Shown here piece by piece: positions 10,431 through 44,326 of a stretch of 64,000 bases of DNA; position 1 is the first letter of the stretch; every line of letters starts with the position of its first letter. Origin of the DNA: Mizuhopecten yessoensis (lineage: Eukaryota); the NCBI RefSeq assembly GCF_002113885.1, contig NW_018407955.1, positions 1,301,835 to 1,365,834 of the forward strand, written 5' to 3'. Made by a program: the position numbers and the translations under genes. The notes beneath the pieces were generated by a model. The model was not told the origin of the DNA. It did no database searches and saw nothing but the letters and a program-made list of their open reading frames with translations.

Positions 10431-10439
10431 AGTATTTCC

Positions 10440-13400: not shown

Positions 13401-14041
13401 AATATGTCATCAAACTGCTGACGCAATTCCTCAGTCTCAACATCCTCCTTATCCTCAATATTGACAGGCGTGATCTCGCAGAAAACCGCTCGGGGTGCAA
13501 TGACCATAGTGTGGTTGGACATATGGAATAACTGGACATGTTAACTCCTATTCCCTTTGTAATGATAATTAATCATAGCAGGATTCAAGTCCAAGTCTGA
13601 CTGAGATGTAATACAGTCCTTCCCTGGCTGTTATAAGGCGCATGTTGGATGATATGGTATCTCCTTGTCGACATATGACTTAATCACTACAGAGCTGTTT
13701 GGAGCCACACTGATGTTCTTCTCCTCAGAACTTCTCACAATACCAAGTCGAAAGTTGTTCCTTGCCAGATCCTTCTCCCTCAGACTGAGACATCTAAATG
13801 CCAGAAACCAAGGTGTATAAAGGCCAGCTTCCTGCAGGAATCTAATAACATGCTGTTGGCGACAACCATCTAATAGTAATGTAGTGTGTTGGTACCGAGT
13901 AGCAGAGGTACTCTGGAGTTGTATTGACTGTATGGAACAACCAATAAGATACAGTCTTGTAATGTCCTTCCAGATCATCCTGTAGCATCTATGGCAGTCT
14001 CTATAAATCCTAGATAAGGCAGAGATTGTCCATCTGCACAC
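10440..14041 (-). mobile_element. Degenerate Gypsy/Ty3 LTR retrotransposon (RT, integrase, PPT, 3' LTR), 5'-truncated, RNase H deleted
   Basis: RT 12659-13522 (WASPIVLVRKKDG, LDMKSGYHQV, MPFGL, YLDD). Integrase 11800-12627 (IDYLSL, HTDQG, TTPYYPMGNGTTER). C-terminal ORF 11142-11687. On the minus strand, purine tract AAGGAGAGAA precedes TGTAAC at 10906. The left LTR boundary is approximate. Confidence 0.9.
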
Positions 14042-15185
14042 TCTATGTTAAGTACACAACTCAATGACTGAATAGGAAATAGGAAAATAGGGAATTACTA
14101 CAGGAATGTAAAAATTAAAATGACACTAAAACAATAACAAAAAAAGTAAGATTTTTTTCTATCGCATATTTTTCCAAATGTATGAAAATACTGCCAAATT
14201 GGAAATTTTCGCGGAGGTTATGTTCGCGTCTTTTGCGCTGAGTAAATTAGCGCAAAAATTTCAATGTGCGAACATTTAAAGATTATAGATAAAAAGAACA
14301 TGGAATTCAATACTATTTTTTGAGAGTAAGTTATGTATATTTTTTCTCTTTTAAGAAATTGTTAACTCAGGTCATTCATTGAAATGTTTCTGATATAATT
14401 TTATCTCTCAATCTTTCACCCTATAAATATGAAAATATTCATTGTTTCCATGTCAGTATATGTCTACAGCGTGTTTAATGACATAGTATATATCCAATGA
14501 GCTATATAGATAATGGGATACTTTTTTGTAGTTCTCAGAGCTGAGGATATATCTGTTTGAATAACGATTTCATTTATGCTTCGATGTTCGTTCATTAGCT
14601 TCATTGGGTTTATATACATACAATCTAACCATATGAACATATTTATCGTGAAAACGTCAGTAGGCTCTATGTGTAAACCTTTCTGAAATAGAAAAGCTAC
14701 ATCATTTAATACCTTTCATTTCAATAGTGAATTATTACCATAATGTGTTTCTAGACAAAATTATCCCGGTTTACAATATGAACATGAACACATCAACACT
14801 TTTCTGTGCTATTGAAGCTAACGTTATTGATTGTTAAATTATTTCAAATCGGTTGCCATCATAAATGTGATCACTGTAATATGTACAACAGTTTAAATAT
14901 ACATCAAGTGCAAAATAAATCTTAATTGACATCATATAATGTTTTATATATACTGCATTTAAATTATTTCCATTGATTGTAAACAGTTCTTACTTACTGC
15001 CACTCCATAGAGGTAGAAGCTATATATATATATAGATCTTATTTAAATAAGTAAATGTCATAGACTAAGCACATATTAAGCGTAGCTGAATCGACTATAA
15101 CAACTAATTGTACTTACGCTTACAGCGTAGCCGAATCGACATCGATTTGTGGACAACTCGTACACATTTTTCACCTTTTTGCACA

Positions 15186-20159: not shown

Positions 20160-23100
20160 TGGTGGTCATGGTATTGACACTGATATGTAGATTTTATGTC
20201 CAACAAATTTACTTTTGTTGTCATGGTATTGACACTGACATGTAGGTTTAACGTCCAACACATTTACCTTTTTTGCCATGGTATTGACACTGGTATGTAG
20301 ATTTTACGTCAAAAAATGTTACTTTTGTTGTCATTGTATTGACATTGATATTTAGATTTTACGTCCAACACATTTACTTTTGTTGTCACGGTATTGACAC
20401 TGACATGTAGGTTTTACGTCCAACACATTTACTTTTGTTGCTATGGTATTGACACTGGTATGTAGATTTTACGTCAAAAAATGTTACTTTTGTTGTCATT
20501 GTATTGACATTGATATTTAGATTTTACGTCCAACACATTTACCTTTGTTGCCATGGTATTGACACTGGTATGTAGATTTTACGTCCAACACATTTACCAT
20601 TGTTGCCATGGTATTGACACTGGTATGTAGATTTTACGTCCAAAAAAATACTTTTGTTGTCACGGTATTGACACTGACATGTAGGTTTTACGTCCAACAC
20701 ATTTACTTTTGTTGCTATGGTATTGACACTGGTATGTAGATTTTACGTCAAAAAAGTTACTTTTGTTGTCATTGTATTGACACTGATATTTAGATTTTAC
20801 GTCCAACAAATTTGCTTTTGTTGTCACGGTATTGACACTGACATGTAGGTTTTACGTCCAACAAATTTACTTTTGTTGCCATGGTATTGACACTGACATG
20901 TAGATTTTACGTCCAACAAATTTACTTTTGATGTCATGGTATTGACACTGATATGTAGGTTTTACGTCCAACAAATTTACTTTTGTTGTCATGGCATTGA
21001 CACTGACATGTAGATTTTACGTCCAACAAATTTACTTTTGTTGTCATGGTGTTGACACTGATATGTAGATTTTACGTCCAAAAAAATACTTTTGTTGTCA
21101 CGGTATTGACACTGAAATGTAGGTTTTACGTCCAACAAATTTACTTTTGTTGTCACGGTTTTGACACTGACATGTAGGTTTTACGTCCAACAAATTTACT
21201 TTTGTTGTCACGGTTTTGACACTGACATGTAGGTTTTACGTCCAACAAATTTACTTTTGTTGTCATGGCATTGACACTGACATGTAGATTTTACGTCCAA
21301 CAAATTTACTTTTGTTGCCATGGTATTGACACTGACATGTAGATTTTACGTCCAACAAATTTACTTTTGATGTCATGGTATTGACACTGATATGTAGGTT
21401 TTAGTCCAACACATTTACCTTTGTTGCCATGGTATTGACGCTGGTATGTAGATTTTACGTCAAAAAAAGTTACTTTTGTTGTCATTGTATTGACACTGAT
21501 ATTCAGATTTTACGTCCAACACATTTACCTTTGTTGCCATGGAATTGACACTGGTATGTAGATTTTGCGTCAAAAAAGTTACTTTTGTTGTCATTGTATT
21601 GACACTGATATTTAGATTTTACGTCCAACACCTTTACTTTTGTTGTCACGGTATTGACACTGGTATGTAGGTTTTAGTCCAACACATTTACTTTTGTTGT
21701 CACGGGATTGACACTGATATGTAGGTTTTAGTCCAACAAATTTACTTTTGTTGTCACGGTTTTGACACTGACATGTAGGTTTTACGTCCAACAAATTTAC
21801 TTTTGTTGCCATGGTATTGACACTGGTATGTAGATTTTACGTCAAAAAAGTTACTTTTGTTGTCATTGTATTGACACTGATATTTAGATTTTACGTCCAA
21901 CACATTGACTTTTGTTGTCACGGTATTGACACTGATATTTAGATTTTACGTCCAACAAATTTGCTTTTGTTGTCACGGTATTGACACTGACATTTAGGTT
22001 TTACGTCCAACAAATTTACTTTTGTTGTCACGGTTTTGACACTGACATGTAGGTTTTACGTCCAACAAATTTACTTTTGTTGCCATGGTATTGACACTGG
22101 TATGTAGATTTTACGTCCAAAAAAGTTACTTTTGTTGTCATTGTATTGACACTGATATTCAGATTTTACGTCCAACACATTTACCTTTGTTGCTATGGTA
22201 TTGACACTGGTATGTAGAGTTTACGTCAAAAAAGTTACTTTTGTTGTCATTGTATTGACACTGATATTTAGATTTTACGTCCAACACATTGACTTTTGTT
22301 GTCACGGTATTGACACTGATATTTAGATTTTACGTCCAACAAATTTGCTTTTGTTGTCACGGTATTGACCCTGATATGTAGGTTTACGTCAAACACATTT
22401 ACTTTTGTTGCCATGGTATTGACACTGACATGTAGATTTTACGTCCAACAAATTTACTTTTGATGTCATGGTATTGACACTGATATGTAGGTTTTAGTCC
22501 AACAAATTTACTTTTGTTGTCACGGTATTGACACTGGTATGTAGGTTTTAGTCCAACACATTTACTTTTGTTGTCACGGTATTGACACTGGTATGTAGGT
22601 TTTAGTCCAACACATTTACTTTTGTTGTCACGGTATTGACCTTGATATGTAGGTTTTAGTCCAACAAATTTACTTTTGTTGTCACGGTATTGACACTGAT
22701 ATTTAGATTTTACGTCCAACAAATTTGCTTTTGTTGTCACGGTATTGACCCTGATATGTAGGTTTACGTCAAACACATTTACTTTTGTTGCCATGGTATT
22801 GACACTGGTATGTAGATTTTGCGTCAAAAAAAGTTACTTTTGTTGTCATTGTATTGACACTGATATTTAGATTTTACGTCCAACAAATTTGCTTTTGTTG
22901 TCACGGTATTGACCCTGATATGTAGGTTTACGTCAAACACATTTACTTTTGTTGCCATGGTATTGACACTGGTATGTAGATTTTATGTCAAAAAAAGTTA
23001 CTTTTGTTGTCATTGTATTGACACTGATATTTAGATTTTACGTCCAACACCTTTACTTTTGTTGTCACGGTATTGACACTGGTATGTAGGTTTTAGTCCA

Positions 23101-23651
23101 ACACATTTACTTTTGTTGTCACGGTATTGACACTGGTATGTAGGTTTTAGTCCAACACATTTACTTTTGTTGTCACGGGATTGACACTGATATGTAGGTT
23201 TTAGTCCAACACATTTACCTTTGTTGCCATGGTATTGACACTGGTATGTAGATTTTGCGTCAAAAAAAGTTACTTTTGTTGTCATTGTATTGACACTGAT
23301 ATTCAGATTTTACGTCCAACACATTTACCTTTGTTGTCATGGTATTGACACTGATATATAGAATTTACGTCCAACACATTTACTTTTGTTGCTATGGTAT
23401 TGACACTGGTATGTAGATTTTATGTCAAAAAAAGTTACTTTTGTTGTCATTGTATTGACACTGATATTCAGATTTTACGTCCAACACATTTACCTTTGTT
23501 GCCATGGTATTGACACTGATATGTAGATTCCTGCGTCCACCATATTTACCTTTTGTTGTCATGGTATTGACACTGATATGGAGATTTTACGTCCAACATA
23601 TTTACTTTTGTTGTCATGTTATTGACACTGGTATGTATGTTTCTGCGTCCA
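20160..23651. repeat. 55-bp satellite array, about 63 copies
   Basis: Consensus TTGTTGTCA(C/T)GGTATTGACACTGATATGTAGATTTTACGTCCAACAAATTTACTT, with 54-bp variants. Confidence 0.97.
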
Positions 23652-24094
23652 AGATTTTGTTTGAGAAAGGTTCGTTATCTGCCTGACACCCTTCCAGATG
23701 TTTCACTGCATTCGACTGATTCCTGCAACAAAACGATATGCTTTTGATGCAGCCATTTGGTTAGTAAGCGACGCTGTCAGTAAATTATGATATTTGAAAA
23801 AAAGAAAAATACAAAAAGTTTGATTATCAGTTTAAAGTGATATATATATGTAAGTACATACGCTGCCTCATTTAAATAATCAATTAGTACCTAACCACTA
23901 GACTGTCTTATAACTATACAGATGAAATTTATATATAAAAAAAATAGTTTTAGAATATACGTAATAATTTCGCATTTTTATCTCCATACAACGTTTCCAT
24001 TTGGTTGTGACATGGAATAGAATAATATCCATTATATGAGTAGCACGTTATTGTTAATTATTAAGTTGCTTATACCAAAGAAACAATTTTGTAC

Positions 24095-24340
24095 TACGCT
24101 AAAGTATTATTTCCCCAATGAGCTTCTTTGTGCCACATTATTTTAATGTTGAAGTGTTATTTCCCCAGTGAGCTTCTTTGTACCACATTGATTTTAATGT
24201 TGACGTGTTATTACCCCAGTGAGCTTCTTTGTACCACATTCATTTTAATGTTGAAGTGTTATTTCCCCAGTGAGCTTCTTTGTGCCACATTAATTTTAAT
24301 GTTGAAGTGTTATTGCCCCAGTGAGCTTCTTTGTACTACG
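24095..24340. repeat. 51-bp tandem repeat (about 4.5 copies, with degenerate copies to about 24630)
   Basis: GTTGAAGTGTTATTTCCCCAGTGAGCTTCTTTGTACCACATT..TTTTAAT recurs at 24148, 24199, 24250 and 24301. Confidence 0.9.
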
Positions 24341-24871
24341 GTAACGTTAAGGGAATAAGTACTATTCCTTAGTAGGCAGATGTGTAGGCGTTTATATTAA
24401 CGATTAGATTGTATTTCCCAAATGAACTACTTTGTACACGTTTTTGCTAATGAATATACTCTACTTCCCAAGTGAGCTGCTTTATACACGTGTGTGGTAA
24501 TGATTAACTGTTCCTTCCCAAGGAACTGCTTTTTTACGTAAACGTCAATGAACAAGTGTTATCACCGTAAAAAGCTGCTTCGTGTCACGTTTATGTTAAT
24601 GATTAAATGCTGTTACCCCAGTGAGCTTCGAATATGTCAAATGAGAAAGAAAGGTAATTTTATATGCTGTGGTTTCTCTATCTGTTTAATGGACAAGGGA
24701 TCCAGTTTATATCCTCTCTGTACAAGGTAAGTATATAGGTAACCCAATTATAAGCAGTTTTATGCAGTGAAATCCCGATCAAGGCATCTTCATTCCAAGC
24801 AAATTTGATAGGATGGTAAGACGGCTAGATTGTTGAGACAAAGTTTGTATAGAAAAAGACCAGTTTTGCAC

Positions 24872-25511
24872 CCCTGCAGGTGGGAGATTGGAAAATAGAT
24901 ATACCTGCTGTTACCCTTTGCACGTATCGCAGGATGCGACTAATGAGTAACCGCCTGCAGAACTTGGGATTTGCTTTGGTTTCCTCTATTTTGGAACACA
25001 AAAGCGACCAAAATAAATCTGCTGCATCCGTTGCAATATTTAGGATCTTTATCGTTCTTTCTACTTCTAACTACCTTTTATTTCCTAGCGCCGTGCTTGG
25101 CAACACCTCACATTTGGCTTGAATGTTGAACATTCGCCCAGGTGAGAAAGGCAATAGGCTCTGTTCCCAGGCCGGGACATATCAAAGTCTTTAAAATGGT
25201 AGTTGTTGTTCCCTGCTTAACGTTCAGCTTAAGGGAAATGGCAACAACTGGTTCACCCGTTGTCAATATAATGTGACATGGTGGAATGCTGTGCTTGGTG
25301 CCTTCTACATGGCATTTCAGTGAGACAGCACGATAAAGTCGGCATCAGATCTGCGCTATCACAAGGAGACAATCATACCAGCATATCATGTCTCCTGCAT
25401 ACACACACGCAAGCACACATACACTACACACATGGAGGCACGTCATTTAATGACATTAGCTGTTAATGGTACGTTAAACAAAATTAAACCAAACCAAACC
25501 TAACCTAACCC
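24872..25511 (+). mobile_element. SINE with a 5' leader (same family as 18416-18885), in intron 7 of the pseudogene
   Basis: Starts CCCTGCAGG, ends (AAACC)n, TTGCAC duplicated on both sides. The paralogous intron has a single CCTTGCAC near 41145 (empty site). Confidence 0.85.
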
Positions 25512-26360
25512 TTGCACTACTGCCAGAAAACTGGAACCATGCACTGAAAAACTGGAAAAGGTGTTTTATTTTCCGGCATGACTATGTCTTTAATGAATCT
25601 ATATATAGCTTTATACTATGCAGGCCGTACTGTTCAATGGTAACACATTTTCATCAAATAGAACGTTATCCCTGGTAATGATCACGTCTGTTTAAATGTT
25701 TAATCACCATAACGATATTGACGGCTCTCAAATCTCCCTCTTTCAGTCATGGACATTCGAAAAGTTATTGGAATCATATTATCAATTATCACAAGCATAA
25801 ATGATGTCATAACGACTATTGAAGTCAAATGTGATAGCTAATATTCCCAATTTACATGTTCACAATCTCACAAGTGAGCATGTCAAGTACAGTATGAACT
25901 TAACACTCATACACAGGTGAAATTACGTTTAAAATTACTTTTATAATAAATACAGTTAACCACAATGAACTACACTACACAATACAGCTACTTCGTCCTT
26001 CTATGACTCGTCAGTAACACTATGGCCAAAAAGGTTGAAATCCAAATTAAGTTAAGCACGTTTGAAGCATGCAGGAGGAGCTTCAATGTTCTTTATTACA
26101 CGAATGAAGGACAATGTGTGTTTAATATGAACCATACCACTACACAAAAGTAACAATCGTGGTCATCAAGCTAAAAGCAAACCTCGAAATCTAAGAAATC
26201 TCGCAGAGTGTTCTACCTTGTATCTAAATGTCATCACATAATGGTCACTTTATCGTCCATGTGCAAGATAGTTAAATCGGCCTCTGTTCAAAAATAAATA
26301 ACATTCTCTCAACATTTCAGACATACTGGCAGATGTTCATCAAGGAAGATCACTTTCTAG

Positions 26361-27137
26361 CTATTGTCGGCTCCCTAGCGGCTGTGTGCAATAGTGGAGG
26401 GAGGATACTATGGGGCTACCTGGCAGACAATTATTGTCGGGTCCCTAGCGACTGTGTGTTATAGTGGAGGGATGATACCATGGGGCTACCTGGCAGACAG
26501 GTATTGTCGGCTCCCTAGCGGCTGTGTGTAATAGTGATGGGAGGATACTATGGGGCTACCTGGCAGACAAGTATTGTCGGGTCCCTAGCGGCTGTGTGTA
26601 ATAGTGGAGGGAGGATACTATGGGGTTACCTGGCAGACAAGTATTGTCGGGTCCCTAGCGGCTGTGTGTAATAGTGGAGGGAGGATACTATGGGGCTACC
26701 TGGCAGACAAGTATTGTCGGGTCCCTAGCGGCTGTGTGTTATAGTGGAGGGAGGATACTATGGGGTTACCTGGCAGACAAGTATTGTCGGGTCCCTAGCG
26801 GCTGTGTGTAATAGTGGAGGGAGGATACTATGGGGCTACCTGGCAGACAAGTATTGTCGGCTCCCTAGCGGCTAGGTGTAATAGTGAAGGGAGGATACTA
26901 TGGGGCTACCTGGCAGACAAGTATTGTCGGGTCCCTAGCGGCTGCGTGTACTAGTGCAGGGAGGATACTATGGGGTTACCTCGCAGACAAGTATTGTCGG
27001 TTCCCTAGCGGCTGTGTGTAATAGTGGAGGGATGATACTATGGGGCTACCTGGCAGACAAGTATGGTCGGCTCCCTAGCGGCTGTTTGTAATAGTGGAGG
27101 GAGGATACTATGGGGCTACCTGGCCGACAAGTATTGT
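26361..27137 (+). repeat. 70-bp minisatellite, 11 copies, derived from MFS exon 8
   Basis: Units start every 70 bp from 26361 to 27061. The unit matches the single-copy coding sequence at about 42118-42190. Confidence 0.97.
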
Positions 27138-30100
27138 TTCAATGTAGGGTTGTTTAAACTCAACATGAACTTGGTTTCATGCTGTGACCTTTCTTGTGAA
27201 GAAGCCATTTATAGCAATACGACAATGTGAAGCAATGCAAAAGATGAAAAAAATGCCAAAGTAAATGAACAACGGCAACGAAGTAGATATCGAAAGAAAA
27301 AATCACTTTTTTAACGTCCTAAAAAGTATACTATATACAATTTTGAATTCTTGCAATGCTATTTTTGGGTTATTGCTAGGAAGGTAAAACATGCACAGTA
27401 ACTTGTCTGCAAAAAGGTTGTACTTTTGGTCGTTTGTCTCGAGATAGATCTAACAGTAGTGTTTGGTGTTGAACAAAAATCACTCCATTGTTGAATTCAC
27501 AGTTATATCCCTTCTGTAAATAACATGGAAATAACAATATTGAGAAAAATACCCGGTATACAGTAAGAAATTCTAGGGATTCACCCTGTGTAATGCGTTA
27601 TGATTACCTCTGAAAAATTCAGGAAAGCAAAGAGTGTTCCGACGTCATCAGACACAGATACGGATCGTCGTAGGCATGGATATTCAGAGAAAGTGTTTTT
27701 CCCCTGCCCACATTACCCAGGTGGAGCATAAATTGGTCTTGGGTGGATGTGCTGTAGCATTCAAGTGCGGTTGCACTATAAATGATGCCGTTGGAAGCAC
27801 AGTCCCACTACAAACAGAACATATAACATTTCTAGCACACACGAAGTCATACACACACAGGGAGATATTAGCCAGGTGGCATAGGACTAATAGTTAGCGC
27901 CTGACAAGGAAGCTCCTGCGAATTTCTCAAAACTGTATTGACAACTGCTAATTGTATCAATTGTATATATATGTACTGTAAAGCGCTTTAGAGTGGCTTA
28001 TCTTGGTAGATAGGGCGCGATATATTATACGTTGTTTTAATCTTTATAGACACGGCAATTAAATAAAAATGCCCCAATTTATTGATGGAAAACATCATCC
28101 AGATTGTGAAAGTAGTTTACACCTTAAACATGTTTATGAGGGTGATATGCCCAGGAAAATTAGTCTCGTGAAGGGGATAACAAACAGGTTATCACACGAA
28201 ATGTTGTTGTTAGGTCTTGTGTGTGCGATACTGACGTTACATTTAAGGTAACCTCCATGCTGTCCTGTGGGATGTGTTGTGTGTGTATACTGACATTTCC
28301 TATGACTGAAAGAGTGGGCCCCGCTCTTTTCCTCATTTACGTCTGCCTTATATTCTTGTCATTTTCCGGTAATTTCTCACTGTCTGATACATACAACACA
28401 TTGCTTGTTGTACTTTTTTGTAACGTTATGTTTGAGAAAAACGTGATAAACAAATTTTATGTTGAATCATTTCATTCAATGATAACTCTCAAATACAATG
28501 GCTGCTGTAAACTGACTCCTGCTTGGTTATAATTGAGATATTATGTGATTTTAATCAAAATTATAGTAGTGATTGCTTTACCGCGCGGCTTCAGTTGTGT
28601 CATATAAGATGGTGGCCATAAAGTTACTTCTGTGAAGTCAAAGTTTATTACCGGTGTTCCTTTTTACACAAATGTGGTATGTAAATAAATTATGGCACTG
28701 AACCTCTAGTATGCCATCCGTGAACCAATTGAATAAGATGGGCGTTATAAACTAGTTTCTGATTGGTCAAATTTAGGTATTGTCTGTTGTTTAATGAAAA
28801 TTTATATGTTGGTGTATTATCACCATGATGATATGAAAATCAAAAGCAATCAATGGTTAGGTAAAACAAACTTAACATAATTAATATCGTTGTTTAAATA
28901 CAATTATATCGAGTTAAATGTTAACGCTAACTAGACCTATTACGGAACGTCAATTAAAATGAGTTGATGGAAATACTGATACATAACAAGAACACATATA
29001 CAAGTTACAGCACATGAACACCAACACTCATATTGATGTACAAAAGGTTGATATCATGGTACCCAGGCTGCCTCTTCCAATCCAATCTCCAGATTGTCTA
29101 GAATATATAATATAATAGAATAAAATATTTAACTGATATTCCGGGAAAGTTAAGATCAATAGAATAATTTCCCTGAAATTAGGTTAGATTGATAATGCAT
29201 GGCAATTTAGGATTTTATTTTCGTGCAGATCGTTACAAGTCCCAAAGGGGTTGTTCTTACATCGTTAGGACAGTATGGGCTATTTTTGATGGTAGCAGCG
29301 TTTTCGTTCACAAGTAAGTTTAATTAATTTCGGTTTAAATGTCGAAACAACGATGACTCTGCAATCATCTTTTTATTACTGTTAACATGCGCCTGTTTTC
29401 CAAAAGAATTCCTACCCAATTCCTTCTTTTGACTGATTTTTCAAAATAATGCTATTCAATAATTTAAAACGACGTATTTTGATCATTACTAAATTTCAAT
29501 ACATTGATCGTACAAGATATTGCTAAATCATTGTTTAATGGAGAAAAATCTGGGTACATATTGAAAATTTATTTTTATCTTATATTGAAAAATAATCATT
29601 CTTCAGAAGCCAGTTTTTGTTGAAGGATATCCTTGCGGATCTGAGACATGTATTGTTTCTCGTTTTTTTAGATACAAAACTACAATTATGGCTGCCCATG
29701 TTGCATGGTACAATTTTGTATATAAGTTGTTCCTTTAAGGTATGCTTATTTCGACGAAAAGCGACCAGACGGAAAAGATATATGAAGGTGTCTCTAAGAT
29801 GAACATGTAAAGGAATCAAAAGTGTATGTCTGGGACATATATTTGCGACAAAAACCTAAGTCGCGGTCCAAAAAAAGGAATGTCATTAAAAAAACATTAT
29901 AACGTATGAGATGCCGGAAGTCCTTCCGGTAAATTAGTTAGCCTCCGTTTTCTGTGATAACTGATGTCTTTCCTTTCATTTTATTCAATGTAATTTATAA
30001 GTCTTGTTCAAACTAAATAAAGAACTCTTTTTAAGACTTTAACTTTATATTACCTACCAATCATACAGACCAATTTTATATACGAGCATTGACATATATT

Positions 30101-31215
30101 GCAAAGTTCATTTCTTAGGTTTTCAAGGTGCTATCACATGTGTTTCCGTCTTACATATATTCTTTGTCTTTATATTTCAGAAAGTTAATTGATAACTTCG
30201 ATGCGTACCGAATACATCAATAACAAACCCTTACCCGTAAATGACACTGTCATTACTTATTAAGGTTCTTAAATGATATAGACTTCCCAACATGCATTTT
30301 TTGTATCAAATATTTAAATTATCCAGTTTTAAACTAAAGTTCGTACACATAAAACTATAATTTTTCTTTTAATTAAAAAAAAAAAAAAAACTATAATTTT
30401 TCAAAAAGTACGAACAATCAAAAGTATTATTCTACCTCGAGCATTGAATTCATTAGTTAAGTTTTAAGGCACTTGAGTTTAGCCATTATATATTTCTTTT
30501 CAGTGGTTTAACTCAAGTGCCTGTGAACTTTAATCAATCAATATAATGTTTGAGCTAGAGCATATATTTTGATTGAAAGGTTACAATAAAGATTGTTTTT
30601 AACAATACTTTGCATATATTGACGTAAGGGACATAACTCCAACATTCCTAAAATATTAACGTTAAAATATCCGCTCTTATCCCAATGGTTTTCGGGTTGT
30701 CTGTTTAGAGTGTGAAAATTGTCAATGGAATCCAATTAGAAATAAATAACACCATAGTGTGTAGCTTATAAACTTTAGATTAGCGATGTCCATTATTTGC
30801 GTAACTTGCTAGGTACATTCATTGCCTGAGATAATATGTTGAAATCTAGTAAATGTTACTTAGCATGGCATTTTATTTAAAAGGTTTGTTAACAGGTGAT
30901 TAGGAAGAGCATTTTTATGTATAATTGTATTAAGTTATGTTATTAAACATCATGATGAGCAAGGCAGAATGAGAAGTTTCATAAACAAAGGTTTAGTGTA
31001 AAATTCGTATGGTCTAAATCTGATTTCTGGCTGATTTTTAGCTTATTTAAAACGTATTTTCAAAATCTACATCTTGGCTTTCAATTCATTATTATACTAC
31101 TTGATAATAGGTCTGTATATTTTGATAACATATGTTTTCTTCCGACTTCACATTTTGTTGTGTTAACTTTGAGTCGTGATATTGAAAGTACAAAATATAA
31201 GTACAGAAACAAGCC

Positions 31216-34200
31216 ATGGTAGAAGCAGAATTTGAGGATAATGATATAGTCTGTATAACAGAATCTCATTTAAACCCTTCAATATCTAACCTTGACATTC
31301 AGATGCACTCCTTCAATTCCAATATTCATAGAAAAGATAGAACTACTGGTCGGTGGGTTAAAGTTTATCACAAGGATAATGTTGTTATGAATAGGCGAAT
31401 GGACCTAGAAAAGGATGATCTTGAATTTATATGGTTAAAAATATTAGTTAATAATCATATATTTCTTCTTGGATTTTTCTGCAAACCAGAAAGTAATGTT
31501 GATTACTGGAATAAATTCGATGATACGTTGACCAGAGCTTCAGATACTTTACTAGATGTGGTACTGACAGGTGATATCAATATCAATATGTTAAATCTTC
31601 CGTTGAATGATCACTTATCAAGACTCCTTATCAAACATAAATTACTTGGTCTTATTAATGAACCCACAAGAATAACACCTGACAGTGCCACATCCATTGA
31701 TATTATCTTTATTAATAGCCAAAACATAGTTTAAAATACTCATGTATCTCCAACTTTTTGCAGTGATCACTTCTCAGTACATGCTTCAATTTCCTATTCT
31801 GTATTTAAAAAAGTAAGCTATAAAAAACTATTTTAAAATATGAAGAAGCAGACTTTGATAAAATGAACAATGCCTTATTTGGTATTGATTGGTTGAATTT
31901 GTCTTCAAATCAGGATTCTAATACTTTTAATAGCACTATAGTTAATGCAATCACGGAGCAGGTCAATAGATTCATCCCTACAAAAGTAATAACAGTGCGC
32001 CCAAATGATAAACCATGGATGAATAACACAATTAGATTGAAAATGAGACAACGAAATATAATTCACCGAAAAGTTATATTAACAAATAATCCCCATTATT
32101 GGGAACAATTTCGAACCCTACGGAGTAAAACTATTGACCTTATCCGTTAGGCAAAAGCAAACTATATAAAAAATCTTGAAAATCACTAAATGATAATGTG
32201 GTTACTCCAGACAAATGGTGGAAGATAGCTAAATCTATTACCAATATTTATAATAAATCATCTTCGATTCCGCCACTTGAATCCAACGGCCAAATAATCC
32301 ATCATCCAACTGACAAAGCACAGCTTCTTAACGATTACTTCACTAAGTATGGCACGAAGGTCTTTTATTTAAATTGAAATTATATGGTTTAAATGGAAAT
32401 TTACTTTCGTGGTTTGAAAATTATCTGTCTAACAGAATGCAAAGAGTAAATACTGAAGGTTACTTTTCACAATTTAAGAATGTAAATGAAGGGTACATCA
32501 AGGATTTGTCCTCTGACCACTATAATTTCTTCTCTATATCAATGATATCACTACTAATGTTTCCACCAATATCAAACATTTTGCTGATGACACTTCTCTG
32601 TATGTAATTATAGATAATAACCCAGCGCAGGCTGCGCAATCTCTCAACACTGATCTTACTAACATAGGTGAATGGGCAACTACTTGGGACATTAAATTCA
32701 ATCCAAGTAAAACAGAATCACTCATATTGTCTAGAAAATAAGACACCCGTCACCTCCCACTCTTCTTCGTAAATAGCCAAATCATAGTCACAACATCAGC
32801 ACTTAGGACTTCCATTTAAAGATGATGCAATATGGAAACAGCACATATACATTATATACAAAAAAGCTTACAATAGACTTAATATTCTTCGCCATGTCAA
32901 AACTAAAGTCAATAGAAAATCTGTAATTAAAATATATGTGGGATTTATTTGGCCAATTTTGGAATATGCAGATATTATTTGGGATAATTGTACACAACAG
33001 GCAACAGATCTTCTTGAATCTGTACAATTAGAAGCAGCTAGGATAATAACAGGTCTTCGTTCTGGGGTATCACATGACAAACTATACAATGAACTAGGTT
33101 GGAAAACACTATCTGTAAGACGAAATAAACACAAACATGTAATGATGTAAAAAAATATGCATGGACAGACACCTCAGTACTTACAAAATGTTTTAAATCC
33201 CTTTATTAATAATCAAAAAGATAACCCCTACCCTCTCAGACAAACTAAGCTTTTCAACCCACCATTATGTAGAACTATTTCGACAGTTTTTTACCTTACA
33301 ATTAACACTGCAAATTCTGATCTTCTTAATTCTCCCACTCCTGCAGCATTAAAAAATTACTTGAATAAAGATATTGTTTCTGATAGTGAATCTGTTCAAT
33401 TTTCAAAACAGAAGGTACCAGAAGAGCAAATATTATTCTATATCAACTTCGAAACTCTTGTAGTAATTTAAATTATGATTTACGCTATGACCATCTTACT
33501 AATAGTCCAGCTTGTACCTGCTCTGCTGAACACGAAACAGTATATCATTTCGTTTTGGAATATCATATTTTTAATAATCAAAGAACTACTTTGTTCAATT
33601 CTCTTAATAGTTATGGCAACCACAATCACATTGGTATAAACATTCTTATTCAGGGCCGTCCTGATTGTAATTGGCTTACAAATAGACGAATACTTGATGA
33701 TGTGCATTATTTTATTGGAAAATCCCGTCGTTTTAATTTTTATATGACTTAAAGCAACGATGTACATGTTAAAACAAAGGTATACTGATTCTATATAACA
33801 TCCAGGAGATTCTAGTTGAGCATGACTTCTGACTATTACATGTACTTATCTTGACATTGTAAATAATTACACTCTATATGTATTAAATTAATGTATTATT
33901 CTTAATTGTAACAGTTGTTGGTAGCAGTGACCTGTGCGATATATGTACATGGACGTTTGGTCTAAGTCTGCCAATATCTGTCAATGATAGTGTATATATA
34001 TATGCTGAAATTAATATATTTGTACTTATACTTGTATGTGTGTGTGTAAGTGTGTATGAGGTGTGTGAGATGTTTCCTTCATGAGTTACTTCCCCTTAGC
34101 CTTGTGTTAATATGAATTATTTTGTGTTAAAGTTTTCATTTCCAACATGTCTAAAATATTATGTCTCATTGTTTATTCCACTTTGGCAATTTGACGGAGA

Positions 34201-36174: not shown

Positions 36175-39100
36175 ATGAACGATAGCCAAGAGAAGAAGAT
36201 GGTTTCGTCCCCACCCCTCGGGAGACACAGATTGAGGGGCTACGTTGTCATAATTGGAGGCATATTAGTGCATCTCACCCTCGGTACCGTATATACGTTT
36301 GGTAAGTGTTTAGAATATATTAACTACTGTTAAATATCTGTATTTCCACGAATACGTATTTTTGCCTTTGTGGCATCAATTATTTTTAAGTATGTGCATG
36401 TAGAGAAAAATACGTTTCCAATACATGTATTCCTCATCTTATACATGTATTTATATATATGGATATTAGCGGTTTTGTGAGTTCACGATGAAATCTGTGT
36501 GAATGATGTTGACCAACATATTTCGTAAAATAAAAAAAAAGTTTTAGTAACATAGTCATAAAATATTTGGACTTTTTGCATTTTTGTATACGTTTGTACA
36601 GATTTCAATTGTACTTTTATAATTCGCTTATTTTGTTTTTAGAAATGTTGACCCTGCTTAATGTTGCTTACACAAAACAAATATAAGAATATTTACATAC
36701 CATACTATGAAAGTAAAACATTTTCTTTTGATTTCTTAGGTAATATGACGCCATATATGACGTCATACATGAGAAAAAAGAACGTTTCTGCTGAACTTAC
36801 TTACGCAGACAGTCTATGGGTTATGGCTGTAGCAGCTATGGGACAAGGAGCCAGTGTATTTATCGGAGGAATTTTACACCGGAAGCTTGGAACGAGACTT
36901 ACTACGTTACTTGGCGGATGGATTTCGAGGTATGGGCATAACTTATGTGCAACCCAGGGTTTACAATCATGGTCTAATTCACCCAATACTAACTGTAATA
37001 TATATAAATATTATAAAAAGAAAAATTCTTAACAACGAGTCTTAAGTACTTTCATCTCATATATATACATGAGGTCCAATTTGAGTCAACCCGTTTGCCA
37101 TGGTTTGCATCTCGTATCAATAAGATCCTGGATTCACTGACGAACTTACGCTAAATATGATCCGGTTTTCTGCAACACAACACTCTGGCCTCGGACTCCT
37201 GATAAACGAGTTGTGATATTAGTTCTGTATTAACAAATCGGCTGTTCGCGCCGAGCCCTTGGTATCCATAGTTCCAAAAGGACGATGGCTTATAGAGTCA
37301 TTAGCGAGAGAAATAAAAGACCACCTGGCTAATATTTCAACTACCTTGTGATGTCATCAACCCTCGGTGGAAAAAACAGCAGAATCATTGCCGCATCTCC
37401 TGTGAAAGAATTGAATAGAAGGAATCGCTGAGAATGGTGATCTCATGCATCAGTTATAATCGCGAGAACAAATTCCACATAGAATATTTTTGACTTGGTA
37501 TTTCCCCCCTTTCTATATAAAATATGAAGCATTCCATAGGAGCGTTTTTGACGAAGAGTTACTTAACCCAGCAATTTGTTTTCATATGGTTTGCGACTCT
37601 TTAATTATAAAATCATTTTGATGCATTGCATGTCAAATCTCAGTTCCAAGTATGAGAATGTTTGTATTTTTGTTTTCTTTTTTAGTAAACTGTAGGTTGT
37701 GCAATGTGAAGGTCCCGGGTTTCTTTCTTTTCTCATTTCTATTTTCAAGCATTTCAATTAAATTAAGAACAACTATAATTCGTAACAGCACGTGATTTGT
37801 ATGCAATATATTTCTTCTGAAAAAGTAATAAAACAAACACTTTACAGTAGTGACATTGGTAATGATATACAATGTAGTTCAACATGCTGGTACCCTTTAC
37901 CAAAAAAATAGCTAAATGGTCACTTACGGTTCTTAATATTGTTTTCTTTGATATTTTTTTAAATAGCGGCGGAGTGCTTTTGACTTATTTTACAATACAG
38001 TCATCCTTCGGTTTGACTGTTCTCACCTATGGTGCAATGTTTGGATTTGGAGTCGGCATTGCATACGCAACACCAATGGGCTGTGGAATGAAGGTAAACG
38101 TGTCATGTTTAGTACTACTACAGGTAAACTCTTTGCTGTAAGTTTGTGTTCAATGATTCTATATACATACAGTGATTGCGAACACGACGTTACCCCAATT
38201 GGTACGCGTATAACATTATCCCGTGATATTTAAAAGTTCCATGACACAAATATGAAACGTTTCTTGTTTTTTGACAAAGTCAGAGAATGGTATTAAAACA
38301 ATTTGGAATTTAAGTAATTAGTTCACAAATAGAGCACTATTTTTGGAGTGATATTGCATTCGTTTACCGGCCACGAAGATATATCCATCATTTTGGGTGA
38401 CATTTTTACCGAAAATGTATCTTAATCACTTAAACGTGTAAAATAACTCTAAAAATCCAAGTTTAGGTCGGAATATAGCTGTAACAAATTATCGGGTCCC
38501 TGTTCCTCTAATGTGAATGAATTTATACCTTGTCCTTATATGTAAACTTCTCCGGTCATCAACCTACAAAAGCATAATTACAAGTTGTGAAATTTCACGT
38601 TTATATTTTAATTGTTCTGCCACCAACAGAAAAAAACACAAATAGAAAAAATAAGATATTCTATCGCATAGACTTTCAAAACAAATATTCTAGTAATCAT
38701 GGACATTTGTTATCATCGACACGTATGTTAGGTTGGCCAAGACTTCTCAAGTAAACACATGAACATCTAAGAATGAAGTTAAGCTTCCATGCTTTCTCCT
38801 TCATTAGAGCGGAATTTTGTTTATGCAAGTCTAATATGCTTTAGCAATAGGTGTCATGCTACTTACTCGTCTGCTTATAATACATGTATAAACATACCCT
38901 AAATGATACTTAAAGGACTTAAACAGTTTACTTTGTTTAGACTTGATGCAAAGCAAATCTTTCTTGCGTTTTGCAGTGGCTACCGGATAAAAGGGGTCTG
39001 GTAAATGGCCTTGTAGTAGCTGGATTTGGAGGCGGAGCGTTTATATTTGACCAGGTTCAGACGGCCTATCTCAACCCTGACAACCTTGCTCCGAACAAAG

Positions 39101-42100
39101 TTGTTGATTAGGACAAGTGAGTACAAATTTACAAATATAAAAGATGGAAACTTATTTGTCCTTAAAATACAAAGTTTTAATTTCATAGTGACGATGTAAA
39201 TGATTAACAACTAACTTTTCGTTTTTGATAGATGATAATTGTATTCGTGCATATACTTGCCAAATACCCTGAATCCCCGGAATTCCTGGGGTTGTTCTAA
39301 CTTACATTTTCCTGCACCTCTGGAATACGTCATAACAAAGAAAAAATGTTTTCATTATTAACATCTAAATTTTTTGAGAGGGGTTAATTTTTGCGTTTTT
39401 TTTAAAAATAGTTCCATGAAATTGGACAATTCCAAAATATCTCATTTCTGAAAATTAATAACAATAGTAACAGAAAACCCCCGGATCTAAAATAGATGTT
39501 ACCATGGAAATGGCTACAATCTTGACGCTATCCGTATTACCCTCAATAAGGTGGTGACGATAGATATTGTGACGTTTTCAGAATAATGGCGAATGTGAGC
39601 TCCAGTAAAGGTGCTTCTGTAGTGCGATGTTTTTTACTGGCGATTACAACATGGAATTTGTTTTGACAAAAGCGTTATATAACACAACTGTCCGTTGTTA
39701 GGAAACATTACCAAAGCAAAGAAAATGGTTTTGACAAAGGAAGCGCCAACTAGCATGCGAAAATCTCCTAGGTCCAAAAAACTCATTCCTGAGACTTAAT
39801 ATCATCAATTTTCATTATGGGGATTTTCATTCAGCATGGTCCATCGTATTTGTCGTTTGGCCACTGAAGAGCATCCGCGGTTCGCGTGGAAACAATTCGC
39901 TTTTGATTTTTTTTTCTACAGATACTTCGACCAAGACAGCGTACTAGACAGAGTTCCCCGAATGTTTCTTGTGCTTGGAGGTTGTTACGCAGCCATTCAG
40001 CTTGTCGGGGTCATACTTTTGAAAGACCCACCAGAGAGCGTAAGTAGAGTATTATCGACAAGTCAAAGTCAAGGCTCAGCAAATATTTTTCAGAACAACT
40101 TGATTGGTTTATTGATCTGATTTAATTCTCAATTGTTTTCATATTTCGTGAGCCAGGCTTTGTTCCTTTTTCAATATCATTGTCATTAAAACTTAATATT
40201 TTATTTATGGTCATTCTATTATTATGCTATCAAATTTACCTTAGATTTCTGAGCAAGTCAACCGCAATGACGAGGAAACACAGCTGCTTTCATCCATGTA
40301 AGTTAAAGAAAAAGATTAAGAAATTTAAAGGTTAATTGATACAAATTTAAGGATCCCCATATCACTGCCAAAATCGGTCACTACGCATAGAAAACAACTT
40401 TCCGGCATGACAATAGCTCTGACAAATCATACTTCAGATTGTTATACTGTAGCTCTTACTAACTAAGCTAGCTGGTGAACCGAAGTGTACTGGCAAAACA
40501 GTGCTGCAATAATAACCAACACGAATTTAACCCCTGTTACTGTGTATACAAAAACAACTACAGGGCAGTGGACCAGGGATCCTTAAAGTAACATGTGGTG
40601 TTGCATGATTTATCTTAGTCTGAAACAAGTCTTACTGCTATAATGTACACGTTAAGCTATGTGAGCAGGACAAATGATTTAAGCGCAGTTTTGTATCATG
40701 CCTAAGTAAATGATTAGATATTGTTATCCAATGAACTGCTTTTTACTACATTTATAATAATGATTCAAAGCTATTACCCATCCACGTAAGCTGCTTTATA
40801 CTACTTTTATGTTAGTCCTAGTGGGCTGCTTTGTATCACGTTAACGTCAAATATTAATTGTTATTACCCCGGTGAGCTGTTAATACGTGTAATAAGATAG
40901 ATAGGCTTTGTAAATAAGATATATATGTATTACTTCAATAGCGGGAGTGTACATAATACCGACTATTCGCCAAGGCAGGTTCTGAAGAAGAAGTCATTTT
41001 ATATGCTGTGGTTTCTCTTTTTGTTTAATGGACAAGGGATCCAGTTTATATCGTCTCTGTATAAGGTAAGTATATAGGTAACCAAAATATTCATTTTCAT
41101 GTTCTGATTGTAAAATTGTAATGAGGCTAGATCAGGGTTCAAACCTTGCACCTTCCATTATTCCATCAATTCAATAGACTGTAGGTCTGAAAAATAGCTA
41201 CATGTACCCAGACAATGAAAGTGCCCTGGCCAAGTCGAGCTTAAAGTTATACCGAAAGCGAAATTAAGAGGAGGTAACAGTATGTACGTGTTTTGCCCCC
41301 ACTGGAACACGGATCCTTAAATCTCACCAGAACAATGACAAAACAACCTTTAGATGGTCGTATGAAGAGACTCGACTGGGTATAACTGTACTGTGCCGGC
41401 ACCTGTAGCGTAACACAGTTCACTGGCGCATGGCACAATATCAGTGGAATTGTTACTCAGCCGAGGGTTTGTGGTGCATGTATCAATGCTATTTTGTAAT
41501 CAAGTGACCTAATTGCCTGACGTGGTTTGTTCGTTAATCTACCGTTCAATTGGTAATCATAGAACATTTTCATCAAATAAAACGATATCTCTAATTATGA
41601 TCACGATATTTAAGGCCCTTAAAAAACACCCAACTCAATCATGTACATTCGCAAGGTTATTGAGATCGTAGTGCCAATTGTCACAAATGCAAATGATGTT
41701 ATGACCAAGCTGACTTTTGTCGTCAAAGGTTATAGCTGATATTCTCAATGTGCATATTCACACAACTCGTCGATGATGCTAGGATAAAAAACGATGGAAA
41801 TCCAAACTAGTTTTAAACACTTTTGAAGCATAGTTGAGGTGCCTAAAATCTCTTTGCTGCAAGAATTAAGAAACTTGGAAGTGTAGTAGCATACAAAAAC
41901 ATGTGTTTATAATATAAACCATACTTCTACACAAAATTAACAATCGTGGTCATCAAGCTTAAGGCAAACCTCAAAGTCTAAGAAATCCAGTGTTCCACTT
42001 TAAATGAAATCACATAATTGTCACTGTATTGTCCAAGTGGAATAAAATAAAATAATAATATACTCTCAATATTTCAGACATATGGGCAGACGTTCATCAA

Positions 42101-44326
42101 AGATGATCACTTTCTAGCTATTGTCGGCTCCCTAGCGGCTGTGTGCAATGGTGGAGGGCGGATATTATGGGGCTACCTGGCAGACAAGTTTTGTTTCAAG
42201 GCAAGTTTTATTTCACATAGCATCAATTTGATTTCATGTTGTGACCTTTCCTTCAAGGAACTTATTTCTATTTGCCAAAAAAATTGAAGTAGTGAAAACA
42301 AAGAAAAAAATGCGAACGTAAATAAACAGAAGGCAACGAAGAAGATACCAAAACAAAACATTCACGTTTATGAAGGCGGTAGCAGCACGTTTGTCAGCTC
42401 TCACGCTAGAGCTATCAAGGAGATGAAAGACAGGTTATCACGAGAAATGGCGAGATAATAAGTATATATTGATACGTCTTATATAATATACGAAAAAATA
42501 CCGTCGTTTTGATCCGAAAGACTGCTCTTCAGACATGTCTAGAATTTCCAGGTCTTGTGTGTGTGATACTACCGTTACATTTTAGGTAGCCTCCATACTG
42601 TCCTGTGGGTTGTTTTGTGTATGTATACTGACATTTCCTTTGACGGAAAGATTTGGCTCAGCCCTCTACCTCTTATACGTCTGCCTTCTGTTCCTGTCAT
42701 TTTCCGGTAATTTTTCACTTCTGCCAACGGCTACAGCGAAGTGTTTTGGACAGAAATACTACGCCATCAACTATGGATTCGTATTTACAGCTTCAGTACG
42801 TATATCTAGATTTTCTTGAATGTTGTTTGATATATACAAAACATTGCTTTGAGAACTAGTTGAAACGATCTTCTTAAGAAAAAGGTGATACACGTTATTC
42901 ATGTTAAATTGTTTCAATTGATGATAACGCTCGAATATAATGGCTGTAAACTGACTACTGATTGGTTATAATTGAGATATTTTCCAATTTCATTCAAGTT
43001 CATAGCACTGCTTCTTTACCACCACTTCATTGTGCCATTAAACATGATGGCCACCATAAAGTGACTTCATACTGCCGTTGTTCCATTTTATAAAAGTATG
43101 GTATATAAATGTATTGTGGCACTGCGAAATCTAGCACGGCATCCATAAACCATTTAAAAAGATGGCCGCTATAAAATAGTTTTTGATTTGTCAAAACTTA
43201 GGTATTGTCTGATTTTTAATGATTTTTTTTTATGTTGGTGTATTATGTTCATGTTGATAAAGAAATCAAGAGCAATCCACGCTTAGGAAAAAAACCATGC
43301 TTATCATAATTAAGATCGGTGTTGAAACATAATTAAATATGCTTTGGTAATACCGAGGTAAATGTTAACGTTAGACCGATTACATTTTTTGCTCTGCCAT
43401 AGTGCACAAGTGGTATGTCACTTTAAATGAGTTGATGGAAATACTGACACATAACAAGAACACATACATGTATACAACTTCCAGCACCAGGACAGCCAGA
43501 TGCATATGGATGTTCATAAGGGGATCTCGTGGTACAAGGGCTGCTTCTACCCATTCAATCTCCAGATTGTCTAGAATTTGTAATATAATAAAAGAAAATG
43601 TGAAACTGTTATTCCGGTAAAGTTAAGATCGATAGATTAGTTTCCCTGAAATTAGGTAAGATGCTGTACTTTGATAATGCATTGCAGTTTCGGCTTTTGT
43701 TTAATTGCAGATCGTTACAAGTCCAATAGGGGTTGTTCTTACATCGAATCTGCAGAACTCGTTAGGATGGTATGGACTATTTTTTATGGTTGCAGCGTTT
43801 TCGTTCACAAGTAAGTTTAATTAATTTTCCCTAAATTGTAACGAGACAACGAGGACCAGACAATCATTTGCTTATTACTGTCACTCGCATTTTTTAGTTT
43901 ATTGTCTTTTATGTATATCTTTATTTATTATAATTGATTCGTAGTTGACTGGGCACATGTGTCTGTTCCTGCACATTTTCTTGAGAGTTTTGTTTTAGTT
44001 ATCTAGTTAATGATTTAAAACGGCGTACTTGACTGTTACGAAAAGTTTATATATTCGATCATACTAATTAATTGGTAAATGGAGAAAAAACCTGGCACAT
44101 ATAATTCAATTTACGTATCTTATATTGAAAAAAAAAAAATCATTCGTCATAAGCCATTTTTGTGTTGTGTAAAATCCCTGCAGATCTAAGCCATTCATTG
44201 TTTATCTTCATGATTGCACCTGCTTTTTAGATACATAACTGCAATAATGGCTGCATATTATACATTTCAGGTGTGCTTATTTCTATATTCTTCAACGAAA
44301 AGCGACCGGACGGAACAGATATATGA
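36175..44326 (+). CDS. MFS transporter, oxalate:formate antiporter (OxlT/OFA)-like, 11 exons, 455 codons, with a premature TAG in exon 4
   Basis: Exons 36175-36301, 36740-36929, 37967-38093, 38977-39116, 39922-40039, 40245-40297, 40942-41065, 42078-42200 (GC donor), 42586-42795, 43711-43810 and 44271-44326. All phases are compatible (1368 nt). Motifs HLTLGTVYTFGN, KWLPDKRGLVNGLVVAGFGGG and GRILWGYLADK. TAG at 39109-39111. Confidence 0.9.
40351..40582. mobile_element. MITE with TTAA target duplication and GG...CC ends (Kolobok-type), in MFS intron 6
   Basis: TTAA|GGATCCCC...CACTGCC ... GGCAGTG...GGGATCC|TTAA. A related terminus occurs at about 8175-8214. Confidence 0.75.

What the first reader, a model, noticed from the sequence alone, without database searches (positions are those of the whole stretch)
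26321..27143. A minisatellite born from a protein-coding exon, with its single-copy source 16 kb away
Seen: 70 bp of MFS exon 8 (encoding IVGSLAAVCNGGGRILWGYLADK, the MFS loop motif region) is repeated 11 times inside the duplicate exon, whose acceptor and 3' end remain. In the duplicate both unit boundaries read TATTGT, whereas the other paralogue has TATTGT and TTTTGT, so a single base difference yields a 6-bp microhomology exactly at the repeat junction. Ten extra units add 700 bp, which shifts the frame. Shared variants (GGG/GGC, GCT/GTT) record the order of amplification. Inference: microhomology-seeded duplication followed by unequal exchange or rolling-circle amplification. If transcribed, it could yield RNA matching the parent gene.
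Basis: partly seen in the sequence, partly recalled or inferred. Interest (0 to 1): 0.7.

Follow-up and report, generated by a model that had tools for sequence, protein, structure and literature searches.

The report
Exon-born minisatellite in dead scallop gene
In a scallop, 70 bases of a transporter gene's exon are repeated 11 times inside a broken second copy of that gene; this is likely an ordinary, neutral repeat started at two 6-base look-alike ends, useful mainly because the sister gene still shows the unrepeated state.

Summary
Real but ordinary. At 26362-27137, 70 bp of exon 8 is repeated 11 times plus a 6-bp TATTGT tail. It lies in copy A, a decayed tandem paralogue (exons 7-11 only, four further deletions) of an MFS transporter gene B at 36175-44326 in Yesso scallop. 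The array grew in place in A. B, 16 kb away, is the unexpanded sister rather than the source, since all 11 units share three differences from it. Scallop orthologues (F, F, V) make A's TAT the derived state, so one T>A change completed a 6-bp direct repeat (chance about 0.3% per junction). That is the known Haber-Louis / microhomology-mediated tandem duplication signature. Whether the change came before the duplication is inferred, not shown. The array is in seven other DNA-type runs, with unit variants differing between samples. Variants are mosaic, which favours repeated exchange over a rolling-circle burst. No expression data were available. Rough dating puts array growth and loss of constraint on A in the same period, so the first 70-bp duplication may have been the killing frameshift. 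The scan noted two other exon-derived minisatellites in this genome (unchecked here).

The parts
26362..27131 (+). Eleven 70-bp units of exon 8 sequence (minisatellite); mean pairwise difference 6.7%, mean distance to their majority sequence 3.8%
26362..26367 (+). Left microhomology arm TATTGT (same in B)
27132..27137 (+). Right microhomology arm TATTGT (B: TTTTGT); the A at 27133 is derived in copy A
26321..27143 (+). Exon 8 of copy A, 823 bp, acceptor kept, GT donor at 27144, first in-frame stop at 26462
24647..24726 (+). 3' remnant of exon 7 of copy A; acceptor and about the first 45 bases lost by deletion, donor kept
28248..28380 (+). Exon 9 of copy A; about 105 bp deleted, removing its 3' third and the donor
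29229..29313 (+). Exon 10 of copy A; 15-bp in-frame deletion at a 3-bp microhomology (TCG)
29740..29785 (+). Exon 11 of copy A; 10-bp frameshifting deletion at a 3-bp microhomology (TTC)
24100..30956 (+). Approximate extent of copy A (intron 6 remnant to 3' flank), homologous to about 40700-45490; introns differ at about 19-21% of aligned sites
36175..44326 (+). Gene B: 11-exon MFS_1 transporter (oxalate:formate antiporter-like / YhjX-like names in databases), 455 codons; TAG at 39109-39111 in exon 4 on this haplotype, CAG on contig C82285 (L014)
42078..42200 (+). Exon 8 of gene B, holding the single unexpanded unit (42119-42188) followed by TTTTGT; GC-type donor

Best explanation
The array is a single-locus minisatellite inside exon 8 of a broken paralogue of an MFS transporter gene, likely seeded by replication slippage or misaligned repair between two 6-bp TATTGT arms, and likely neutral. 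Steps: (1) The gene duplicated in tandem, giving A and B about 16 kb apart (shown), and A probably stayed under constraint for roughly half its history (inferred from a deficit of replacement changes). (2) A T>A change in A turned TTTTGT into TATTGT, 70 bp after an existing TATTGT (derived state shown; its timing before the duplication inferred, about 75%). (3) A microhomology-mediated tandem duplication made two copies (inferred from the arm geometry). (4) Repeated slippage, unequal exchange and conversion between units raised the number to 11 and shuffled the variants (inferred from mosaic variants within the array and between samples). (5) A decayed by this and other lesions; the array has no likely function.
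For: Geometry is n x unit + arm, with a perfect 6-bp arm that occurs at 0.26% of junctions by chance. Pecten, Ylistrum and Argopecten orthologues have F, F, V at the site (second codon base T); B, its haplotig and B contigs from three other samples also read TTTTGT. A search of the genome found the unit only here, in B and in B's haplotig. Of 22 amino-acid differences in 146 codons, 16 are A-derived, 4 B-derived and 2 unclear. A also has deletions in exons 7, 9, 10 and 11, two of them at 3-bp microhomologies, and no exons 1-6 were found for it in the genome. Both flanks run into array sequence in 7 of 7 DNA-type runs laid. Unit 2 differs from the window at 0, 1, 2 and 2 sites in X1, X2, X8 and X13. 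The last unit carries the T seen in units 2 and 10 in X8 and X13. The model is published (PMC13167724, PMC6947457, PMC3389668).
Against: The order of T>A and duplication cannot be read from the sequence: an exchange resolving inside the last 4 matching bases (TTGT) could have copied the A into the tail afterwards. No single-unit allele of A was seen, so the 1x state of A is reconstructed from B. Ancestral state is read from proteins only; oyster and mussel orthologues mostly have Y here (4 of 6 checked), so the site flips over longer times. Contigs cannot span the array, so copy-number variation is not shown. The G>S change shared by all units is weak evidence of earlier decay: G is kept in 9 of 9 bivalve proteins P0003-P0011, but across 119 family members that site is A, C, G, S and others.
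Confidence: 0.8

Rival explanations
1. Duplication came first, using little or no perfect microhomology (1 bp, or the 5-of-6 match T-TTGT). The A in the tail was copied in later by unequal exchange or conversion from an internal junction, so the 'seeding mutation' is a product of the array.
For: B shows a 5/6 match already present ancestrally. The last unit exchanges variants with internal units in other samples (27103 G>T in X8 and X13), so exchange does reach the 3' edge.
Against: It needs a breakpoint inside 4 bases of about 74. No difference at 27133 is listed in any of 8 runs covering it (3 rows not shown). If the 4-bp TTGT had been used, internal junctions would read TTTTGT; 0 of 10 do.
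Confidence: 0.2
2. The first 70-bp duplication was the lesion that inactivated a then-functional paralogue A. This concerns timing and is compatible with the best explanation's mechanism.
For: A has at most 20 replacement changes where 32-36 are expected if it had always been neutral (P 0.003-0.016). This puts it free of constraint for about 0.43-0.49 of its history, while unit divergence spans about 0.35-0.40 of it. Any 70-bp duplication shifts the frame unless the added units number a multiple of three.
Against: Counts are small, equal rates are assumed, and homogenisation makes arrays look younger. At least five other inactivating lesions exist (loss of exons 1-6, exon 7 acceptor, exon 9 donor, exon 11 frameshift, radical substitutions), and any could have come first.
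Confidence: 0.15
3. The array was made in one burst by rolling-circle copying of a 70-bp extrachromosomal circle and re-inserted in place.
For: Head-to-tail geometry with a microhomology junction is also what a small circle would give (general knowledge). 16 of 21 minority alleles are private to one unit.
Against: Five minority alleles are shared among non-adjacent units and 2 of 10 pairs are incompatible. Unit 1 keeps B-like bases that the interior lost (4 differences against 5-10). No dispersed copies were found. A circle adds a step with no evidence.
Confidence: 0.05
4. Copy A with its array is transcribed and acts on gene B as a small-RNA source, decoy or NMD-linked regulator.
For: 56 of 803 21-mers of A's exon 8 match B perfectly; the longest perfect match is 45 bp.
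Against: A lacks exons 1-6 and so probably its promoter. The units are direct repeats on the same strand as B and fold no better than shuffles (DNA parameters, z +0.6 to +1.6). Units are diverging from B at positions fixed in all copies.
Confidence: 0.04
5. Assembly artefact.
For: No contig spans the array.
Against: Units differ from one another. Junction contigs such as 26421-26535 match exactly in X1, and junction or internal pieces are seen in all 8 runs laid.
Confidence: 0.01

Closest known systems
Microhomology-mediated tandem duplication (MTD) expanding into tandem repeats (Wei et al. 2026, PMC13167724; preprint 10.64898/2026.02.28.708716)
   Same: A single-copy segment flanked by a microhomology arm is duplicated and expands to unit x n + arm. 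The paper reports mostly neutral dynamics and depletion from coding regions (abstract and two results sections read).
   Different: Their data are microbes and humans, mostly 1x to 2x or 3x. Here it is a mollusc array of 11 units, and the 1x state is inferred from a paralogue rather than seen as an allele.
Haber and Louis 1998 model of minisatellite origin between 5-10 bp flanking direct repeats (seen only as described in PMC6947457 and PMC3389668; original not read)
   Same: 6-bp direct repeats flank the unit; later growth is by slippage, conversion or unequal crossing-over.
   Different: The described examples come from yeast and human non-coding or Alu DNA. Here the seed is a protein-coding exon and one arm carries a lineage-specific base that can be polarised.
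[quoted passage not shown]
   Same: The array ends in an incomplete terminal unit.
   Different: The incomplete unit here is only 6 bp, closer to the short direct-repeat model than to the near-complete terminal units that PMC3389668 scored.
Duplicated (unprocessed) pseudogene of an MFS_1 (PF07690) oxalate:formate antiporter-like / YhjX-like transporter
   Same: Introns are kept, it lies in tandem next to the parent, and it has multiple disabling lesions and an excess of replacement changes.
   Different: One lesion has grown into a minisatellite.

Membership tests
MTD-derived / Haber-Louis minisatellite | Head-to-tail units of 10-100 bp at one locus | tested here: met
   70 bp x 11; only this locus, B and B's haplotig in the genome (counts are lower bounds)
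MTD-derived / Haber-Louis minisatellite | Array ends in a short (5-10 bp) direct repeat of the unit start, beyond chance | tested here: met
   TATTGT tail; 0.26% by chance
MTD-derived / Haber-Louis minisatellite | An ancestral single-copy state flanked by the microhomology | tested here: inconclusive
   B shows the 1x state with a 5/6 arm. No 1x allele of A was seen in 8 runs, so a perfect arm before duplication is inferred
VNTR | Copy number varies between individuals | tested here: inconclusive
   Unit variants differ between samples. Summed contig depth over array versus flank is 1.1-1.2 in 3 of 7 runs and 2.1-2.7 in 4 of 7, but the tool states that depth is no copy number
Duplicated pseudogene | Disabling lesions with introns retained | tested here: met
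Duplicated pseudogene | Relaxed selection on the copy | tested here: met
   16 of 22 amino-acid differences are A-derived; rough omega 0.5-0.6 in A against about 0.17 in B
Duplicated pseudogene | No functional transcript or product | not testable with these tools
   No RNA run on record among the holders
Intron gain by tandem genomic duplication (recalled concept) | Each duplicated unit carries an AG|GT site so the extra copies splice out exactly | tested here: not met
   AGGT occurs only twice in the array, at different unit positions (26499, 26874)
Rolling-circle / eccDNA-derived array | Star-like unit divergence without shared incompatible variants, often with dispersed copies | tested here: not met
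   5 shared minority alleles, 2 of 10 pairs incompatible; no dispersed copies found
MFS_1 (PF07690) transporter, parent gene | Pfam MFS_1 above its gathering cut-off | tested here: met
   P0003 83.2 bits and P0002 53.5 bits against cut-off 33.4; P0002 is 100% identical to B exon 2

The most novel reading that the evidence does not exclude
One point mutation in a still-working paralogue completed a 6-bp repeat, the resulting 70-bp duplication frameshifted and killed the gene, and the scar then grew into a polymorphic minisatellite. That would be a fully reconstructable case in which a minisatellite's birth was the pseudogenising event, with the before state preserved next door.
Probability: 0.12. 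Interest if true: 0.5.

Novelty: new member of a known kind. Interest (0 to 1): 0.27.

Why it matters
The first step of minisatellite birth is rarely visible because the single-copy ancestor is usually lost. Here the sister paralogue and orthologues let the unit, both arms and the one base that completes the arm be polarised. That makes a clean worked example of the MTD model in a mollusc and in coding DNA, and a possible marker for scallop populations. It does not change the model, and no function is indicated.

Tried and rejected
Expression: no RNA holder listed. The one run guessed to be RNA (X16) laid two unspliced pieces, one intronic and one in the array, and none on B's exon; this tells nothing either way. 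Secondary structure as a trigger: neither strand of the unit, in A or B, folds better than shuffles. A clean order of amplification: a reading in which units 3-4-5 recur as 8-9-10 and units 4-5 as 6-7 fits by eye, but the block test gave p = 0.058 and an adjacency test p = 0.38, both chosen after seeing the data. G>S in all units as proof that decay preceded amplification: dropped, as the site is variable across 119 family members. Exact removal of the array as a new intron: no shared AG|GT site. A single-unit allele: no joint skipping array units among the joints shown (5 not shown, none). Exons 1-6 of copy A: not found in the window or genome. Coding origin for the neighbouring 55-bp array: no second copy of its flank or its 45-aa frame in the genome, unresolved. 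The gene model had a one-base boundary error (exon 8, then exon 11); the numbers used come from the corrected. Literature: six searches listed no paper on this locus or on a pseudogene-exon minisatellite polarised with a paralogue. The library lacks most subscription journals, so this is not proof of absence. No supplements were read.

Full report
Observation. Tandem Repeats Finder reports a 70-bp array of 11.1 copies at 26362-27137 with 93% matches and no indels. The eleven units start at 26362 and a 6-bp tail TATTGT closes the array at 27132-27137. Units differ from the single matching stretch at 42119-42188 at 4 to 10 of 70 sites, and each translates as IVGSLAAVCNSGGRILWGYLADK or a variant. 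The host exon runs 26321-27143, 700 bp longer than its 123-bp counterpart, so the frame shifts and the first stop falls at 26462. Eleven of 12 junction hexamers read TATTGT and one TATGGT; the unexpanded copy reads TATTGT and TTTTGT. In the non-repeat part of the window a perfect junction match of 6 bp or more is found at 0.26% of 53,784 positions at lag 70.

Setting. Self-comparison shows two collinear copies: A at about 24100-30956 and B at about 40700-45490. B is a complete 11-exon gene at 36175-44326 of 455 codons. Its exon 2 is 100% identical to records named MFS-type transporter YhjX of Mizuhopecten yessoensis, and its orthologues are called oxalate:formate antiporter-like; Pfam MFS_1 is above cut-off. 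A holds only remnants of exons 7-11. A genome search with exon 2 found one match, and a search with the Pecten orthologue found no early exons outside B and its haplotig. A has also lost the exon 7 acceptor, about 105 bp with the exon 9 donor, 15 bp of exon 10 and 10 bp of exon 11; the last two deletions sit at 3-bp microhomologies. So the array is one lesion among several in a duplicated pseudogene.

B is a sister, not the source. Three unit positions (32, 41, 47) differ from B in all 11 units. A also keeps the orthologues' residue at 4 sites where the window's B differs (one of these, I338, is M on the haplotig and so only a polymorphism). Introns differ at about 19-21% of aligned sites and synonymous sites by dS about 0.25, whereas units differ by 6.7% pairwise. 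The array therefore grew in place in A well after the gene duplication. Searching the genome with two units found only this array, B, and contig C82285, a 99%-identical second haplotype of B (such counts are lower bounds).

Which base is ancestral. The disputed base is the second position of a codon: TTT Phe in B, TAT Tyr in A. Pecten maximus and Ylistrum balloti have Phe and Argopecten irradians has Val, all with T in second position. The haplotig reads TTTTGT, as do B contigs in X5, X6 and X14. A's base is thus derived among scallops. Four of six oyster and mussel proteins have Tyr, so the site does flip over longer times. What cannot be read is the order of events. A duplication using the ancestral 4-bp TTGT would have given TTTTGT junctions, and none of 10 internal junctions does. 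But a duplication with a 0-1 bp arm followed by an exchange resolving inside the last four bases would also end in TATTGT. I put mutation-first at about 75%; that is a judgement, not a computed value.

How it expanded. There are 16 private and 5 shared minority alleles; 2 of 10 pairs of shared alleles fail the four-gamete test. Unit 1 is the most B-like (4 differences). This pattern needs repeated exchange between units and fits a single rolling-circle burst poorly. A block history (units 3-5 recurring as 8-10, units 4-5 as 6-7) is suggestive only (p = 0.058, post hoc). The unit has no unusual fold on either strand.

Other animals. Eighteen runs were listed, 16 holding part of the stretch, from 6 studies; I laid 8 of them, all as short-read contigs. 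One may be the animal that was assembled. In the 7 DNA-type runs, both flanks run into array sequence and internal pieces are present, so the array is not an artefact. Unit 2 matches the window in X1 and differs at one site in X2 and two in X8 and X13. X8 and X13 carry in the last unit the T that the window has in units 2 and 10. No difference at 27133 is listed in any run, though X1 has a later change at 27135. Summed depth over the array against flank is about 1.2 in three runs and 2.1-2.7 in four. The tool warns that this is no copy number, so length variation is only hinted at. No contig spans the array.

Timing against gene death. Of 22 amino-acid differences in 146 aligned codons, 16 are A-derived, 4 B-derived and 2 unclear. 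A carries at most 20 replacement substitutions where 32-36 would be expected had it been neutral since duplication (P 0.003-0.016). So A probably worked for about half its history and lost exons 1-6 later. The neutral share of its history comes out at 0.43-0.49 and the array's depth at 0.35-0.40. These rough figures overlap, so the first 70-bp duplication could have been the inactivating event, but other lesions are equally eligible. I first took the G>S change shared by all units as a sign of prior decay; the site is G in 9 of 9 bivalve proteins but variable across 119 family members, so that argument is weak.

Known kinds. Passages of two papers describe the Haber and Louis model, in which a segment flanked by 5-10 bp direct repeats is duplicated and then expanded (PMC6947457; PMC3389668). 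The latter found such flanks in 300 of 7,276 transposon-derived human repeats. Wei et al. 2026 (PMC13167724; abstract and two results sections read; preprint abstract) call this microhomology-mediated tandem duplication. They report it as about 80% of tandem duplications in reference genomes once decay is allowed for, mostly neutral, and depleted from coding DNA. The original Haber-Louis and Taylor-Breden papers were not read (the latter is not held). This array fits that class. Six literature searches listed no report of this locus. Earlier scan notes describe two further exon-derived minisatellites in this genome (not checked here), and the window itself holds several other minisatellites, so such births look common in this species.

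Verdict. A real, single-locus minisatellite born in place from exon 8 of a decayed MFS paralogue by a known mechanism. Its merit is the unusually readable before-and-after record. New member of a known kind; interest 0.27.

Noticed in passing
window 39109-39111; L014 2133-2135: Gene B has an in-frame TAG in exon 4 on this haplotype (database protein P0001 ends there at 192 aa), while contig C82285 has CAG (Gln) and an open frame (P0020). Either a heterozygous null allele or an assembly error; if real, this haplotype has no intact copy of the gene.
   Followed up: partly
window 42200-42202: Exon 8 of B ends at a GC donor (AAG|GCAAGT); copy A has GT at the same place (AAT|GTAGGG). Model P0002 mis-splices here.
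   Followed up: partly
window 20165-23652: A 55-bp minisatellite of 63.7 copies, found only here and on one small contig (C17266). It ends in a partial unit of about 23 bp. One unit plus flanks reads like a phase-1 exon with a hydrophobic stretch followed by basic residues, but no second copy of the flank or frame was found.
   Followed up: partly
window 24102-24336 and 24415-24532; 40700-40880: A degenerate repeat of about 50 bp lies in intron 6 of both paralogues; in copy A part of it has re-expanded as a 51-bp x 4.6 array (66% like B), a second local expansion in the same dead gene.
   Followed up: partly
window 42187 (exon 8 of B): B contigs in X6 and X14 read ACG instead of AAG just before the Phe codon, a Lys/Thr polymorphism at a site that is K or R in the bivalve orthologues aligned.
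   Followed up: no
window 27600-27900: A very high-copy short interspersed repeat in intron 8 of copy A, absent from B; loose ends of other copies carry a tRNA-like GGTTCGATCC motif.
   Followed up: no
window 31200-33750: A decayed non-LTR retrotransposon (endonuclease- and reverse-transcriptase-like frames, recognised from memory) lies between copy A and gene B.
   Followed up: no
window 8921-10500 (+) and 11142-14047 (-): Broken reverse-transcriptase and integrase-like frames of two retroelements, upstream of copy A where its first exons would be expected.
   Followed up: no
window 48694-49923 (-): A fucosyltransferase-like frame (recognised from memory) interrupted by one stop at 49312.
   Followed up: no
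window 54430-56106 (-): A 558-aa open frame with B-box, coiled-coil and NHL-like features (recognised from memory).
   Followed up: no
window 59595-63725: An 11-bp-based complex satellite grading into a 44-bp repeat, with strong purine skew.
   Followed up: no
protein P0004 (Ylistrum balloti), residues about 500-750: The orthologue's database model runs into four copies of a repeat of about 59 aa after the last transmembrane segment, probably a tandem repeat mis-joined to the gene.
   Followed up: no
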